Assembly (NCBI RefSeq): GCF_022846255.1
Contig: NZ_AP025682.1
Length of the DNA stretch: 64,000 nucleotides
Strand: one strand, 5' to 3'
Source of the DNA: Escherichia coli
GTDB lineage: Bacteria > Pseudomonadota > Gammaproteobacteria > Enterobacterales > Enterobacteriaceae
The notes under the pieces: model-generated
The model's input: only the letters and a program-made list of their open reading frames with translations
Told to the model about the DNA's origin: nothing
Databases searched by the model: none
Shown: one piece after another, positions 32,185 to 36,818 of the stretch
How the letters are laid out: each line of letters opens with the position of its first letter
Position numbering within the stretch: position 1 is the stretch's first letter
Program-made: the position numbers and the translations under genes

Positions 32185-33744
32185 TTATTTGATATCCTTC
32201 ACGCGCATACCGTTGAGCTGTTCATCCGTAATGGTGTTGCCCGCTTTGAAGTAATCAACCACCGCGTGATAAACGTAATAACCGCCCGTTGTGTTACGCG
32301 CTTTCCCTTCGGTAAAGGCGGTAAAACCATCTCCACCATCAGCAAGGAAACTCTGAGTAGCAATGTGATAAACCGTCGCATCTTCAATGGGTTTGCCATT
32401 CAGAGTCAGTGTGATTACCCGCTGACCAACCGGCTTGCTGCTGTCGTACTTCATTTCCAGGCCTTTCGATACCTGTAAAACGCCATTGCTTAAACTTGCG
32501 CCGTGTTCCATCAGACTGCGTAATTGTTTACCCGTGAGTTCCATCGTCACCAGTTCGTTGGGGAACGGGAACGTACTGATAACGCCGCCCATCGTGATCG
32601 CCCCTGCGGGGATCTCATTGCGGATACCACCAGAGTTTGTTAACGCCAGTTGGGTATTTTTACCCGCTGCTGCCAGTAAAGCGTCAGCCGCCAGGTTCCC
32701 GAGGGAAGCCGATTCACCATAGGCACGTTTTAATTCAACCGGCGATTGCGCCACCGTTTGTTGCACCACTTCATCAAGCTTTTTATTCCAGCCGTCGATC
32801 ACCTGTTTCGTTTGCGGATCGGGCTTCCACTCGTCAGCGTAAATGGTTTTAAGCTCGAAGTTTTTCACCGTAAAATTATGCGGCTTCTCTTTGTAGTCGA
32901 GAACCAGTTTGCCCACATCAATCCCGCCGCTGTCAGTGGAGAGGATGAGCGTATTGCCGACTTTAATCGGTTCCGGCGTACCCACATGTGCATGTCCGGT
33001 GATCAAAATATCCAGCCCTTTCACCTGACTTGCCGTCTGAATATCTTTATCCAACGCGCGACGCACATCTGTGCCTCCCATACTGGACTGGCGGGCCGGA
33101 ACACCTTCATGGATCAGGGCGACGGTCAAATCAACCTTGCCTTTAAGTTCATCGATATAACGTTGTAGCCATTTAATTTCATCACGCGCCTCAATACCCA
33201 CTCGCGTGGCAGCAGATACTGTGTCATTAAAGGCAAATACACCGTGCAAACCTATAACGCCTATTTTCACACCGTCTTTTTCGATGATGGTATAGGGCTT
33301 ATCCCAGAATGATTTACTGCTGTTCTGATAAAAAACATTGCCCTGCACAATCGGGAATTTTGCCTGACTCAACTGTAATAATGTGTTGTCCCAGCCGTGG
33401 TCAAATTCATGGTTGCCTATCGTGACGGCATCAAACGGCATAGTATTCATAATATCGATAATAGCCTTACCTTTGGTCAGGCTGCTGATATATGGCCCGG
33501 TAAAATAGTCGCCCGCATCAAAAAACCATGTCGCTTTATTTTTTGCTTTTTCTTGCTTAACCAGCGTAGTGATATTTGCCCAGCCGCCAATATCCCGTTT
33601 ACCGTTCGCAATCCACGGCACTTTATAAGGCTCTACATGTGCATGGAGGTCGTTAGTATAAATAATGGTGACATCTTTGGCGCAAGCCCAGAACGGCAAT
33701 GTTAATGCGATACCCGCAGCAAGTATTTTAATTTTCATAAACAA
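32185..33744 (-). CDS. Secreted bifunctional metallophosphatase/5'-nucleotidase (UshA/CpdB family), paralog A, 519 aa
   Basis: Signal peptide [22 protein letters not shown]; metallophosphatase motifs [26 protein letters not shown]; C-terminal 5'-nucleotidase-domain motifs NSGGIR, FPFPN, GGDGF; absent from metL-metF interval in my memory of K-12. Confidence 0.85.
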
Positions 33745-33797
33745 TCCCTTTCAGTGAGATAAAGGATTGCTACATTACGTTCTGAAAGACTTATTTA

Positions 33798-33813
33798 TGT
33801 GAGAGTAATCACA
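33798..33813. promoter_or_regulatory. CRP-type binding site (TGTGA-N6-TCACA) in divergent promoter between paralog A and the zinc-ribbon ORF
   Basis: Sequence TGTGAGAGTAATCACA read directly; perfect match to both CRP half-sites with 6-bp spacer. Confidence 0.5.
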
Positions 33814-33870
33814 TCCGCAGGGGATAGTTGCCGGACAAAATCAACGACCTTGTGAAATCGTTGGTGATAT

Positions 33871-34995
33871 ATGTCGACTCTGTTTACGATTAATGCCTGT
33901 AAAACGTTCGGTTGCCGAAATTTGGGATTGGCCTCATCGGAAGATTACAGTTGGCCAGACTATAAACTGGGTTATCCGGCACTGCACTGTCGGGCATGTG
34001 GAAGTTACCCGCCGTTGTTTGACGAACAGCAATTTCGTGACTGGTTGTCAGTTCACTTATCTACTTTTGCAACTGAGAAAGGTCATTTCTGCCCGGTATG
34101 TTATGGCACAGACATGATTTGTTATGGTCACAATCCACAGGGTTCGCAACGCATTCAATGCCGTAACTGCAAAAAAGTCTGGACGCCTAAAAAATATCAG
34201 AAAGAAATTACGCATCCCCAGGCCATTGAAACCGTTCAACTGTTCATACCCTTTCAAGGGGCCAGTGCAGTACAAAAACTGTATGTTTTAGTCAGTCTTG
34301 ACGCCACTCGTGGCAACATTCTTCATCTCTCCACGAATTATACGCAACATCAGACAGGAGACAGTCTGCGGTACAGTTACAAGGGCAACACAGAACCAAC
34401 TATGCACCATCGCGATATCGTGCAGAAGGTAGATATGCGTGAAGCGCAATTCTTGCGCCGGAGCCAGTTCGATGAAATTCAGTATGGCAGTGCTGTACTC
34501 AAGCGCAACGGTAAGGGAGCCATACTACGCCCGGTTATCACGGCACACGGGCATTTCAGAATACTGAAAATCCGCTATCCAGATGTCAAAACGCATATTA
34601 TTTCACACGAATGTTTTCTAAGAGGCGCAATTATTACAGCCTGGGCAGATCAGTTCCGCCAACAACAAGGTGAACTTTGGTTCGTAGAAGAAGAAATCAG
34701 TGACAGTAACGCTGATACGCCCTGGCATTTTAAGGGAACGACATACCATGGTTGGTGGCAAAATCAGTGGCAGCGCTGGGAGCAGGGGAATAACTGCAAG
34801 ATGGTCTGCCTACTCACGGGAGCCTGCTTAGAAAGGGGCGCAAATGTTTCTCTGGCAACCAGTCGTTGTTTTATCACATGGCTGACAGACCAACACGACT
34901 TTACCCAAAGCGCGTTATTATCCGCAGGTCGCGTAACACAAATGCTGACCTCACTGGCGTTAAAATACAATGAATCGCTCACTCCATCTTGTTAG
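33871..34995 (+). CDS. Hypothetical cytoplasmic protein with N-terminal tandem CxxC zinc ribbons (InsA-like), 374 aa; function unknown
   Basis: ATG start at 33871; four CxxC pairs in first ~100 aa (CKTFGC, CRACG, CPVCYG...QRIQCRNCKKVW); no signal peptide; long uninterrupted ORF in AT-rich island. Confidence 0.6.
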   Translation: MSTLFTINACKTFGCRNLGLASSEDYSWPDYKLGYPALHCRACGSYPPLFDEQQFRDWLSVHLSTFATEKGHFCPVCYGTDMICYGHNPQGSQRIQCRNCKKVWTPKKYQKEITHPQAIETVQLFIPFQGASAVQKLYVLVSLDATRGNILHLSTNYTQHQTGDSLRYSYKGNTEPTMHHRDIVQKVDMREAQFLRRSQFDEIQYGSAVLKRNGKGAILRPVITAHGHFRILKIRYPDVKTHIISHECFLRGAIITAWADQFRQQQGELWFVEEEISDSNADTPWHFKGTTYHGWWQNQWQRWEQGNNCKMVCLLTGACLERGANVSLATSRCFITWLTDQHDFTQSALLSAGRVTQMLTSLALKYNESLTPSC

Positions 34996-35224
34996 TCAAT
35001 ACACTCGACAAACGACCATAAATTAAGAGAGAGCACTACCTTTCATTTAATTAAATATATAAATGTATGACCGTGAAATATAATCATGGTCAATGTTTAA
35101 TTAATAACATTATTTGTTACTAAGATCACACAATACTTTTCTGAACTATGCTTACATAAAATAAGACACGATGTGTCTTTTATTTAAATAATTCAACAAA
35201 TGTAACACACCCTATCCAGGAGGG

Positions 35225-36778
35225 ATGATGAAAACTGTATTTACAACATTATCAGTCATATTCGGCGTGATATTTTCTCACAGTGTTCTAGCTCAGGACG
35301 TTACTATTTATTATACGAATGACATTCACGCACATGTCAATCCGGCAAAAATCATCGCTGTTGATAAGAACAGACTTATAGGTGGTATGGCTAATATTGC
35401 AGGCATCGTTAATGAAGCGAAGAAAAAAAGCAAAGATGTGTTTTTCTTTGATGCAGGCGACTATTTTACCGGGCCGTATATCAGCACCCTGACCAAAGGT
35501 GAAGCTATTATTGATATCATGAACACTATGCCCTTTGATGCGGTGTCTGTTGGTAATCACGAGTTCGATCACGGTGTGCCCAATATGGTGTCTCAGTTAT
35601 CAAAAGCAAAATTTCCCATTCTGCTGGGAAATATCTACTACACCGATACGAATAAACCAGTTTGGGATCATCCGTGGACCATTATCGAAAAAGATGGTTT
35701 AAAGATTGGTGTGATTGGATTGCATGGCGCATTCGCTTTCTATGATACAGTCGCGGCAAAAGCACGTGAAGGCGTAGAAGCCAGAGACGAAATTAAATAT
35801 TTAAATAAAGCACTTGCAGAATTAAAAGGTAAAGTCGACATTACCGTTTTGCTAATTCACGAAGGTGTCCCGGCGCGTCAATCAAGCTTTGGTAGTAAAG
35901 ATGTGGAGCGGCTACTACAGGCAGATATTGAGACAGCTAAAAAAGTGAATGGTGTTGATGTCTTAATTACCGGTCACGCACATGTCGGAACACCGCAACC
36001 AATAAAAGTTAATAACACATTAATTGTATCTACCGATGCATACGGCACCAACATCGGAAAACTTGTGCTTGATTACAATCCGAAAACGAAGAAAATTGAT
36101 AGTTATAATGGTGAGTTAATCACCATCTTTGCAGATCAATTTAAACCTGACACCATCGTTCAAAATACTATTGATAAATGGAGTGCAAAGCTTAACAAAA
36201 TAACACAGGAAGTTGTCGGCCATTCTCCCGTAGTTTTAACACGTGAGTATGGTAGTTCCTCTTCTACCGGCAACCTTATTCTTGATGCAATGATGGAAAA
36301 AACACCTGATGCCGTTGCCGGATTTCAAAATAGCGGTGGGATGCGAGCTGATTTTCCTAAAGGCGATATCACACTGGGAGATGTTATTAGCACATTCCCC
36401 TTTAATAATGACCTCATCGAGATGGATTTGACGGGCCGCGATCTCAAATCATTGATGACGCATGCAACCAATCTAACTAACGGTGTGTTACAAGTTTCTA
36501 AAAGTGTTGCGGTTGTCTATGACAGCAAAAAACCACTCAACCAACGGTTAATCTCTTTCACCATTAACGGCAAACCCGTGGAAGATAATCAAACATATCG
36601 TATTGCCACGCACTCCTTTTGTGCCAGTGGTGGTGACGGTTTTGAAGCATTTTTGAATGGAAAAAATGTGAAAACGATACCGGGAACAACCTCGGCGGAA
36701 TCTATCATCGATTATTTCAAAAATCACAAGCCTATCACCCCAGACTTAACTAAACGAGTCATGGACGTCGCCAAATAA
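35225..36778 (+). CDS. Secreted bifunctional metallophosphatase/5'-nucleotidase (UshA/CpdB family), paralog B, 517 aa
   Basis: Strong SD (AGGAGGG) then MMKTVFTTLSVIFGVIFSHSVLAQDVTIYYTNDIHAHV...; same motif set as paralog A (GDYFTG, GNHEFD, GHAHVG, NSGGMR, GGDGF). Confidence 0.85.
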   Translation: MMKTVFTTLSVIFGVIFSHSVLAQDVTIYYTNDIHAHVNPAKIIAVDKNRLIGGMANIAGIVNEAKKKSKDVFFFDAGDYFTGPYISTLTKGEAIIDIMNTMPFDAVSVGNHEFDHGVPNMVSQLSKAKFPILLGNIYYTDTNKPVWDHPWTIIEKDGLKIGVIGLHGAFAFYDTVAAKAREGVEARDEIKYLNKALAELKGKVDITVLLIHEGVPARQSSFGSKDVERLLQADIETAKKVNGVDVLITGHAHVGTPQPIKVNNTLIVSTDAYGTNIGKLVLDYNPKTKKIDSYNGELITIFADQFKPDTIVQNTIDKWSAKLNKITQEVVGHSPVVLTREYGSSSSTGNLILDAMMEKTPDAVAGFQNSGGMRADFPKGDITLGDVISTFPFNNDLIEMDLTGRDLKSLMTHATNLTNGVLQVSKSVAVVYDSKKPLNQRLISFTINGKPVEDNQTYRIATHSFCASGGDGFEAFLNGKNVKTIPGTTSAESIIDYFKNHKPITPDLTKRVMDVAK

Positions 36779-36818
36779 AATCTCATTTATCAGTCAATTT
36801 ATTTAACAAGGAATGTGA

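What the first reader, a model, noticed from the sequence alone, without database searches (positions are those of the whole stretch)
33871..34995. 374-aa cytoplasmic ORF with tandem CxxC zinc ribbons and no recognisable catalytic domain
Seen: the first ~100 residues hold four CxxC pairs; the second ribbon (CPVCYG...GSQRIQCRNCKKVW) resembles the IS1 InsA / transposase-type zinc ribbon. The remaining ~270 residues match nothing I recognise, and I could not find a DDE triad or helix-turn-helix. It is the only non-secreted protein in the island and is divergently transcribed from paralog A across a 126-bp spacer. Inference: either a new zinc-ribbon regulator of the island or a domesticated transposase-derived protein.
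Basis: partly seen in the sequence, partly recalled or inferred. Interest (0 to 1): 0.65.

Follow-up and report, generated by a model that had tools for sequence, protein, structure and literature searches.

The report
Tamed IS1 transposase beside nucleotide-scavenging genes
The 374-aa ORF is a real, conserved, single-copy host gene descended from an IS1-type transposase that has lost its catalytic residues and its mobility. In many gamma-proteobacteria it always sits next to genes for scavenging external nucleotides and nucleosides, so it is most likely their regulator or sensor, though that role is untested.

Summary
The ORF (33871-34995, +) is real and under purifying selection (dN/dS 0.09-0.25). 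It occurs once per genome in 1841 of 5426 complete E. coli genomes.

- The two catalytic Asp positions carry no conserved acid anywhere in the family.
- There are no terminal inverted repeats.
- The E. coli clade has deleted the helix-turn-helix.

In about 35 loci from four gamma-proteobacterial orders the gene lies next to periplasmic 5'-nucleotidases, Tsx channels, nupC-deoCABD, or acid phosphatase/phosphodiesterase genes.

Best reading: an exapted IS1 transposase serving as regulator or sensor of a nucleotide-scavenging module. The origin is shown; the regulatory role is inferred. Rivals are a non-canonical His/Glu enzyme and a cytoplasmic partner or inhibitor of the nucleotidase. I found no publication that characterises it.

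The parts
33871..34995 (+). 374-aa ORF: exapted IS1-type transposase homologue (RefSeq 'hypothetical protein' or 'cytoplasmic protein')
33898..33999 (+). Zinc ribbon 1 (C10, C15, C40, C43; Cx4C...CxxC). It is family-specific; all four Cys are >=93% conserved.
   Evidence: strands in the model
34090..34170 (+). Zinc ribbon 2 (C74, C77, C97, C100), the InsA / IS1-type transposase ribbon
34222..34659 (+). RNase H-like (DDE-transposase-type) core, residues ~118-263: b1-b2-b3-a1-b4-a2-b5-a3. The catalytic Asp positions are not acidic. H228 is invariant; H246, E247 and R251 are nearly invariant.
34672..34980 (+). Family-specific beta-sheet insertion (residues 268-314, GWWxxxW motif) and C-terminal helical bundle (320-370). 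No match outside the family.
33745..33870 (.). Divergent control region between nucleotidase paralog A and the ORF. Its length and blocks are conserved in Escherichia, Citrobacter, Enterobacter and Klebsiella.
33798..33813 (.). Exact CRP consensus box TGTGAGAGTAATCACA, conserved across genera
33842..33863 (.). Inverted repeat CAACGA-N10-TCGTTG just upstream of the ORF's ribosome-binding site. The arms are conserved and the spacer varies. It is a candidate operator or 5'-leader hairpin (inferred).
32185..33744 (-). Periplasmic 5'-nucleotidase paralog A (metallophosphatase/5'-nucleotidase). It is the constant partner of the ORF in enterobacteria.
35115..35130 (.). CRP-like box (1 mismatch) in the promoter region of paralog B
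35225..38438 (+). 5'-nucleotidase paralogs B (35225-36778) and C (36819-38438)
38515..39375 (+). Tsx-type nucleoside-specific outer-membrane channel

Best explanation
The ORF encodes a host-domesticated descendant of an IS1-type transposase.

**Ancestral architecture.** It is still seen in Vibrio, Photobacterium, Agarivorans and some Salmonella homologues: an extra zinc ribbon, the InsA zinc ribbon, a three-helix helix-turn-helix, an RNase H-like transposase core, a beta insertion and a helical tail.

**What has changed.** The two catalytic aspartates are gone in every member, and the gene no longer behaves as a mobile element. The Escherichia/Salmonella/Citrobacter/Klebsiella/Enterobacter clade has also deleted the helix-turn-helix.

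**Most likely function (inferred).** The gene is locked to genes that degrade external nucleotides and take up or catabolise nucleosides. I therefore think it is the dedicated cytoplasmic regulator or sensor of that scavenging module. It would act at the conserved divergent promoter together with CRP. The strongly conserved His/Glu/Arg pocket at the former active site would bind a nucleotide- or nucleoside-derived effector.

The origin, the loss of catalytic residues and mobility, the purifying selection and the gene linkage are shown. DNA binding, effector binding and regulation are inferred.
For: **Fold and homology**
- The AF2 model has pLDDT 93.7 and pTM 0.93, with RNase H topology.
- The family profile aligns to E. 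coli IS1 InsAB' residues 4-87 (ribbon plus helix-turn-helix), hhalign 96.4%, E 1e-9.
- Distant members hit the NCBIfam IS1 transposase model up to position 140 of 199, below its cut-off.
- A model of the Photobacterium-type member shows the three-helix helix-turn-helix before the core.

**Degenerate triad**
- Acidic residues are 0-20% around b1 (residues 117-131) and 0-11% at residues 220-229.
- T121, P221, H228, H246, E247 and R251 are 79-100% conserved.

**Not mobile**
- One copy per genome in 1841 E. coli genomes.
- 14 of 72,556 plasmid records hold a match, against at least 5000 for IS1.
- No flanking inverted repeats.

**Selection**
- dN/dS is 0.09-0.25.

**Gene linkage**
- Divergent 5'-nucleotidase, with or without Tsx, in E. 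coli, Salmonella, Citrobacter, Enterobacter and Klebsiella.
- A 5'-nucleotidase lies 21-98 bp upstream on the same strand in the 20 Vibrionaceae/Psychromonas loci where I measured the gap.
- Divergent nupC-deoCABD in Agarivorans and Gynuella.
- Divergent porin, class B acid phosphatase and class II phosphodiesterase in Salmonella Give.
- A paralogue with a Tsx-like channel plus a phosphodiesterase/sulfatase-like gene.

**Control region**
- The spacer is conserved, with a CRP box and an inverted repeat.
Against: - There is no experimental evidence of DNA binding, expression or regulation.
- The E. coli clade lacks the helix-turn-helix. By my own recollection of Ohta et al. 2004, IS1 InsA needs it to bind DNA.
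- I found no shared operator motif across family loci. The recurrent palindrome upstream of the Vibrio nucleotidases looks like a LacI-family (PurR/CytR-type) site and is not universal.
- CRP boxes already account for some of the control.
- Invariant His/Glu at the former active site could mean catalysis rather than sensing.
- In Vibrionaceae the gene lies downstream in the nucleotidase operon. That position is also typical of enzyme-partner or immunity pairs.
- Residue-level equivalence to the IS1 DDE rests on secondary structure only. The cores do not align by sequence.
Confidence: 0.5

Rival explanations
1. It is still an enzyme. The RNase H-like core has swapped the DDE triad for a His/His/Glu (plus Arg) site and acts on nucleic acids or nucleotides in the cytoplasm, for example as a nuclease or phosphodiesterase feeding salvage. 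The zinc ribbons would hold the substrate.
For: The most conserved residues lie where the second and third catalytic residues of RNase H-fold enzymes normally sit: H228 100%, H246 93%, E247 100% acidic, R251 89%, R197 100%. The protein is linked to nucleotide-degrading genes.
Against: No sequence or fold match to a known His-dependent RNase H-fold nuclease. The top fold matches are transposases and integrases. The partner enzymes act in the periplasm and already release nucleosides, so a cytoplasmic nuclease has no obvious substrate. The divergent-gene layout in enterobacteria, Agarivorans and Gynuella is more typical of regulators.
Confidence: 0.17
2. It is a cytoplasmic partner of the cognate periplasmic nucleotidase. 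It would be an inhibitor or immunity protein, or an export chaperone, that protects the cytoplasmic nucleotide pool before export. This would be analogous to the classical cytoplasmic protein inhibitor of E. coli UshA, which I recall from 1960s biochemistry.
For: In the 20 Vibrionaceae/Psychromonas loci measured, the gene follows the nucleotidase by 21-98 bp on the same strand. This resembles nuclease-inhibitor pairs. The protein is cytoplasmic, and the linkage to 5'-nucleotidase genes is near-universal.
Against: Agarivorans and Gynuella homologues sit beside nupC-deoCABD with no secreted hydrolase. The B2 island has three nucleotidases for one ORF. A transposase-derived protein with zinc ribbons, and ancestrally a helix-turn-helix, is an odd scaffold for an enzyme inhibitor. 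K-12, where the classical inhibitor was found, lacks this gene: 3585 of 5426 E. coli genomes have no match.
Confidence: 0.1
3. It is a selfish element: an active or recently decayed IS1/IS1595-like insertion sequence, or a transposon carrying nucleotidase genes as cargo.
For: InsA-type ribbon, IS1-like fold, and automatic 'IS1 family transposase' labels on Vibrio, Proteus and Serratia homologues. The cassette sits at different chromosomal sites in Enterobacter and Klebsiella. The island has low GC.
Against: - Single copy in every E. coli genome that has it.
- Same metF-metL position in Escherichia, Salmonella and Citrobacter.
- No terminal inverted repeats.
- Catalytic aspartates absent family-wide.
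- No Pfam DDE_Tnp_IS1 or HTH_Tnp_IS1 hit in 56 members, whereas true IS1 proteins carry both.
- Almost absent from plasmids.
- dN/dS about 0.1 between genera.
Confidence: 0.03

Closest known systems
IS1 transposase InsAB' and its InsA repressor (E. coli IS1)
   Same: N-terminal Cys4 zinc ribbon followed, in most family members, by a three-helix helix-turn-helix. This is homologous by profile comparison. The RNase H-like core is most similar to IS1 transposase models. By my own knowledge, InsA is itself a DNA-binding transcriptional repressor, so a regulatory descendant is a small step.
   Different: - An extra N-terminal ribbon, a beta insertion and a C-terminal helical domain.
- No conserved acid at the two Asp positions.
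- No PF03400 or PF12759 hit, no frameshift, no inverted repeats.
- Single-copy host gene.
- The E. coli clade lacks the helix-turn-helix.
IS1595 / ISXO2 transposases
   Same: Zinc ribbon followed by a DDE core. There are weak hits to the shared IS1/IS1595 ribbon model.
   Different: PF12760 is hit only weakly, in 5 of 56 members at E <= 0.1 and in none at E <= 0.001. No DDE_Tnp_IS1595 hit appears. IS1, IS6 and Mutator models rank top by fold, not IS1595.
Exapted transposon proteins used as regulators: eukaryotic FHY3/FAR1 and CENP-B, and bacterial TldR (nuclease-dead TnpB-derived repressors); also the Piv invertase (all from my own knowledge)
   Same: A transposon-encoded DNA-recognition protein kept by the host, with the catalytic centre degenerate and mobility lost, under purifying selection.
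   Different: Different transposase superfamily (IS1 DDE), bacterial, and tied to a metabolic module. The regulatory function here is inferred, not shown. I know of no described bacterial DDE-transposase-derived metabolic regulator, and the paper searches found none.
CytR/DeoR/CRP control of nucleoside catabolism in E. coli (functional analogue; established knowledge)
   Same: The target gene classes are the same (tsx, nupC, deoCABD), and CRP boxes are present in the promoters.
   Different: No homology to the LacI or DeoR families. These are a different DNA-binding module and fold.

Membership tests
IS1 family transposase | InsA-type N-terminal Cys4 zinc ribbon (PF03811 / NF050000) | tested here: met
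   Residues 74-105. NF050000 scores 23.2 bits (cut-off 28) and PF03811 gives E 0.007 for this protein. 9 of 56 members reach E <= 0.001. Family hhalign to InsAB' is 96.4%.
IS1 family transposase | IS1 helix-turn-helix after the ribbon (PF12759) | tested here: not met
   It is absent from this protein. The model has no helix between residues 101 and 117. It is present structurally in distant members and aligns to the InsA helix-turn-helix, but PF12759 is not hit in any of 56 members.
IS1 family transposase | DDE_Tnp_IS1 catalytic core with conserved D, D, E (PF03400) | tested here: not met
IS1 family transposase | Terminal inverted repeats flanking the gene | tested here: not met
   No inverted-repeat pair brackets the ORF or the island. 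The only bracketing pairs are the mirrored starts of paralogs A and B.
IS1 family transposase | Multiple copies or presence on mobile replicons | tested here: not met
   One place per genome in 1841 E. coli genomes. 14 of 72,556 plasmid records hold a match, mostly mislabelled chromosomes. IS1 has 16,756 places in at least 5000 records.
IS1595 / ISXO2 transposase | Zn_ribbon_IS1595 plus the DDE_Tnp_IS1595 domain | tested here: not met
   PF12760 is hit only at E 0.0036 or worse, in 5 of 56 members. No DDE_Tnp_IS1595 hit appears.
Domesticated (exapted) transposase gene | Demonstrable descent from a transposase | tested here: met
Domesticated (exapted) transposase gene | Single-copy orthologues at a syntenic host locus across species, without transposon ends | tested here: met
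   The metF-metL position is shared by Escherichia, Salmonella and Citrobacter. Single copy. No inverted repeats.
Domesticated (exapted) transposase gene | Purifying selection on an intact ORF | tested here: met
   dN/dS is 0.09-0.25, and the ORF is intact in five genera.
Domesticated (exapted) transposase gene | A demonstrated host function | not testable with these tools
   Only the genomic association is available.
Sequence-specific transcription regulator | DNA-binding domain and a cognate operator | tested here: inconclusive
   Zinc ribbons are present but the helix-turn-helix is lost in this clade. A conserved inverted repeat lies at 33842-63 in the ORF's own leader, but no motif is shared across family loci.
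Known anti-phage defence proteins (PADLOC) | Match to a defence-system model | tested here: not met
   No match for the window protein or for P0170 and P0147. P0143 gave only two weak CARF-model matches (E 0.0022 and 0.033), which I treat as noise.

The most novel reading that the evidence does not exclude
This would be a previously undescribed family of bacterial transcription factors or sensors built from a catalytically dead IS1 transposase. The former DDE active site, now an invariant His/His/Glu/Arg pocket, would bind a nucleotide or nucleoside effector. The protein would switch on periplasmic nucleotide hydrolysis and nucleoside uptake and catabolism across Enterobacterales, Vibrionales and Alteromonadales. 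To my knowledge it would be the first DDE-transposase domestication in bacteria dedicated to metabolic regulation.
Probability: 0.3. Interest if true: 0.8.

Novelty: new variant of a known kind. Interest (0 to 1): 0.66.

Why it matters
Exaptation of transposases into host regulators is well documented in eukaryotes and has only recently been shown for TnpB in bacteria. A DDE (IS1) transposase turned into a conserved host gene would be a new bacterial case.

The gene is in a third of complete E. coli genomes, including Nissle 1917, ExPEC B2 strains and ST131. It is also in Salmonella, Citrobacter, Klebsiella, Enterobacter and many Vibrionaceae, where databases call it 'cytoplasmic protein' or mislabel it 'IS1 family transposase'.

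Its strict linkage to 5'-nucleotidase, Tsx, NupC and Deo genes gives a directly testable route to how these bacteria control use of extracellular nucleotides and DNA. That trait is relevant to gut and urinary-tract colonisation.

Tried and rejected
- **Sequence libraries for the C-terminal 270 residues.** Pfam, NCBIfam, PHROGs, PADLOC and PDB sequences gave nothing beyond the ribbon.
- **hhalign of the core against IS1 InsB.** Neither a single InsB sequence nor a 17-sequence IS1 alignment gave a significant match (E 0.2-0.27). Catalytic-residue mapping therefore rests on secondary structure.
- **Gathering diverse IS1 sequences.** Both the plasmid tblastn and the last protein search were saturated by near-identical IS1A/B.
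- **Profile search with the 56-sequence alignment.** It returned only the same family.
- **The search for related loci with that alignment.** It failed because the alignment was too diverse; I repeated it with a 16-sequence subset.
- **Inverted repeats as transposon ends.** None were found.
- **A family-wide operator.** The GCAAACG(T/A)TTGC palindrome next to CRP boxes upstream of Vibrio nucleotidases looks like a LacI-family site and is absent from other family loci. The CAACGA-N10-TCGTTG repeat has no second copy in the island.
- **Riboswitch or other RNA in the island.** No Rfam match at E <= 1.
- **Literature.** No paper mentions the accession or characterises the family. One 2026 paper describes the island (GR31) but does not include this ORF among the GR31 ORFs it lists or discusses.
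- **Invertase or phase-variation idea.** Rejected: there are no flanking repeats and no catalytic residues.

Full report
**Setting.** The window is E. coli chromosome: yijE, katG and metF on one side and metL on the other. Between metF and metL lies a low-GC island (38-47% against ~52-55% in the flanks). It holds, in order:
- 5'-nucleotidase paralog A (32185-33744, minus strand);
- the target ORF (33871-34995, plus strand);
- nucleotidase paralogs B and C;
- a Tsx-type nucleoside channel.

RefSeq annotates the same arrangement in Nissle 1917 and many B2 strains and calls the ORF 'hypothetical protein' WP_000105536.1. A 2026 paper on APEC strain BEN2908 describes this island as GR31 (metL..metF). 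In the passages I read, the GR31 ORFs it lists and discusses are the three UshA-like ORFs and Tsx, not this ORF.

**Checking the observation.**
- The ORF, its length and its strand are as stated.
- The N-terminal 100 residues carry four Cys pairs, but one is Cx4C (C10/C15) and three are CxxC (C40/C43, C74/C77, C97/C100).
- The second ribbon gives weak, sub-threshold hits to IS1/IS1595-type ribbon models (NF050000 23.2 bits against a cut-off of 28; PF03811 E 0.007).
- Nothing else in Pfam, NCBIfam, PHROGs, PADLOC or PDB sequences matches.
- The spacer to paralog A is 126 bp with the TTG start, or 132 bp with the RefSeq ATG.

**It is a real, selected gene.** Orthologues named 'cytoplasmic protein' occur in Escherichia, Salmonella, Citrobacter, Klebsiella, Enterobacter, Pluralibacter, Kluyvera and Pseudocitrobacter. 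Pairwise dN/dS among five genera is 0.09-0.25, with intact reading frames. In complete E. coli genomes it is present in 1841 of 5426, always once. An exhaustive representative search found about 120 clusters. These include full-length relatives of 400-530 aa at 21-35% identity.

**What the protein is.** An AlphaFold model built on a 56-sequence alignment is very confident (pLDDT 93.7, pTM 0.93). After the two ribbons and a connecting helix, residues ~118-263 form b1-b2-b3-a1-b4-a2-b5-a3, the RNase H-like topology. A four-stranded beta insertion (268-314, carrying the conserved GWWxxxW) and a helical tail follow.
- Foldseek against AFDB50 shows the family itself. Vibrio, Proteus, Serratia and Photobacterium members are auto-labelled 'IS1 family transposase'.

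**Sequence-level link to IS1.** I rebuilt E. coli K-12 IS1 InsAB' from the genome. The family profile aligns to InsAB' residues 4-87, the zinc ribbon plus the helix-turn-helix, with 96.4% probability and E 1e-9.
- The helix-turn-helix columns are present in most family members.
- In the 374-391-aa enterobacterial clade, including this protein, they are a clean ~50-residue deletion.
- A model of the 500-aa Photobacterium-type member shows three helices between ribbon 2 and the core.
- Distant members hit the NCBIfam IS1 transposase model past the ribbon, up to position 140 of 199, below threshold.
- The cores themselves do not align significantly by sequence.

**Catalytic centre.** In IS1 the triad is the D of MDEQW (b1), the D of MTDGW (after b4) and the E of RIERH. 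I read this from the sequence and from my knowledge of the RNase H fold. I mapped these positions by secondary structure.
- The first Asp falls near residues 121-125, and the second somewhere in 220-228.
- In the 56-sequence alignment the acidic fraction is 0-20% for residues 117-131 and 0-11% for 220-229.
- These positions instead hold conserved T121, R220, P221 and H226, and invariant H228.
- Just after b5, E247 is 100% acidic and H246 is 93% conserved.
- R197 is invariant, and R251, W296 and W300 are nearly invariant.

The DDE triad is therefore lost family-wide, but the old active-site region is the most conserved part of the protein. The exact residue equivalence is an inference. The absence of conserved acids holds for any plausible register.

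**Not a mobile element.**
- No inverted repeats bracket the ORF or the island.
- It is single-copy.
- Only 14 of 72,556 plasmid records match, mostly mislabelled chromosomal pieces. Genuine IS1 saturates the search, with at least 5000 records and 16,756 places.
- True IS1 proteins carry PF03811, PF12759 and PF03400. Of these three, only PF03811 appears among the Pfam matches of the 56 family members.
- The pair of nucleotidase A and the ORF sits at the same metF-metL position in Escherichia, Salmonella and Citrobacter.

**Genomic association.** This is the strongest clue to function.

| Lineage | Neighbouring genes |
|---|---|
| E. coli B2 | Three nucleotidases plus Tsx |
| E. coli ST131, Citrobacter, Salmonella | One divergent nucleotidase |
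| Enterobacter hormaechei, a Klebsiella sp. | Same divergent cassette (two nucleotidases plus Tsx, 132-bp spacer) at other chromosomal sites |
| Two metagenomic or unnamed relatives | Divergent nucleotidase |
| 20 Vibrionaceae/Psychromonas loci from a one-genome-per-species scan | Signal-peptide 5'-nucleotidase gene ending 21-98 bp upstream on the same strand |
| Agarivorans, Gynuella | Divergent nupC-deoCABD; in Agarivorans a Bmp-type nucleoside ABC transporter on the other side |
| Salmonella Give | Divergent porin, class B acid phosphatase and class II cyclic-nucleotide phosphodiesterase |
| A ~25%-identical paralogue in some E. coli and Salmonella (dnaJ-nhaA or priC regions) | Tsx-like channel and a sulfatase/phosphodiesterase-type hydrolase, sometimes a nucleotidase |

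Every gene class here acts on external nucleotides or on nucleoside uptake and catabolism.

**Control region.** The divergent spacer is conserved across four enterobacterial genera.
- It has an exact CRP consensus box (33798-33813).
- It has an inverted repeat CAACGA-N10-TCGTTG (33842-33863) just before the ORF's ribosome-binding site.
- A one-mismatch CRP box lies upstream of paralog B.
- Vibrio nucleotidase promoters carry a CRP box preceded by a GCAAACG(T/A)TTGC palindrome. I attribute this to a LacI-family regulator, because it is not found at other family loci.
- No Rfam RNA is present.

**Interpretation.**
- Shown: the protein descends from an IS1-type transposase, has lost the catalytic aspartates and all signs of mobility, is under purifying selection, and is genetically locked to nucleotide/nucleoside scavenging genes.
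- Inferred: it is the module's cytoplasmic regulator or sensor, perhaps using the conserved His/Glu/Arg pocket at the former active site to bind a nucleotide-derived effector.
- The Agarivorans and Gynuella layout favours a regulator, because the gene is divergent from nupC-deo with no secreted hydrolase nearby.
- The loss of the helix-turn-helix in the E. coli clade and the lack of an identified operator weaken the regulator reading.
- Rivals are a non-canonical enzyme, a cytoplasmic inhibitor or chaperone of the nucleotidase, and, essentially excluded, a selfish IS.

**Novelty.** Databases already flag the ribbon. I found no description of the family, of its transposase-core fold, or of its linkage to scavenging genes. 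Exapted transposon proteins are a known kind. An IS1-derived, metabolism-linked bacterial family is a new variant.

Noticed in passing
window 33871-34995 vs L018 7001-8131: E. coli carries two very divergent alleles of this ORF: about 99% identity in 560 genomes (>=95% identity) and about 81% in 1175. Against the ST131-type locus the window is 95-100% identical through paralog A, the spacer and the first ~30 nt of the ORF. Identity then drops to 82-94% and to ~72% from ~34200. dS is 0.35 in the N-terminal part and 1.9 in the C-terminal part. This points to a recombination junction inside the gene.
   Followed up: partly
L018 8095-8131: In the ST131-type locus there are no paralogs B and C and no Tsx. 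The ORF's 3' end overlaps the 3' end of convergent metL by 37 nt.
   Followed up: no
window 35068-35092 and 35163-35179: Two palindromes lie in the AT-rich 229-bp region between the ORF and paralog B: TGACCGTGAAATATAATCATGGTCA and AAGACACGATGTGTCTT. Either could be the ORF's terminator or a regulatory site. This is unresolved.
   Followed up: no
window 33738-33744: The mechanical ORF call starts paralog A at a TTG (33744). RefSeq starts it at the ATG two codons downstream (MKIKIL...), so the spacer is 132 bp rather than 126 bp.
   Followed up: yes
L019-L040, about 60-120 nt upstream of the 5'-nucleotidase start: Vibrionaceae nucleotidase promoters share a GCAAACG(T/A)TTGC palindrome placed 6-8 nt before a CRP-like TGTGA-N6-TCACA box. 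This looks like a PurR/CytR-type LacI-family operator and suggests these operons belong to a purine/nucleoside regulon.
   Followed up: partly
L048 (E. coli CP099174.1, dnaJ-nhaA region) and L011: A second, ~25%-identical paralogue of the ORF exists in some E. coli and Salmonella. It is co-directional with a Tsx-like channel and a sulfatase/phosphodiesterase-type hydrolase. In related loci a radical-SAM gene is adjacent (L015-L017).
   Followed up: partly
L047 (NZ_LN868945.1) and phage records OR845442.1, OR850920.1: Several 'plasmid' and 'phage' records that match the ORF are evidently chromosomal fragments. For example, Salmonella Senftenberg 'plasmid 3' carries metB-metL...metF-katG. This is a database labelling issue.
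   Followed up: partly
window 33000-39400: GC content falls to 38-47% across the island, against ~52-55% in the flanks. This is consistent with horizontal origin. K-12-type genomes lack the whole segment: 3585 of 5426 genomes have no match.
   Followed up: partly
window 39554-39583: A perfect 14-nt palindrome, AACAAAAGCTGGCA/TGCCAGCTTTTGTT, lies between Tsx and the end of metL. It is probably a bidirectional terminator.
   Followed up: no
L007-L009 (Salmonella enterica serovar Give): The homologue with the porin, acid phosphatase and phosphodiesterase operon lies in a region with IS3-family fragments and a PAP2 phosphatase gene. This is possibly a separate genomic island for nucleotide or phosphate scavenging.
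   Followed up: no
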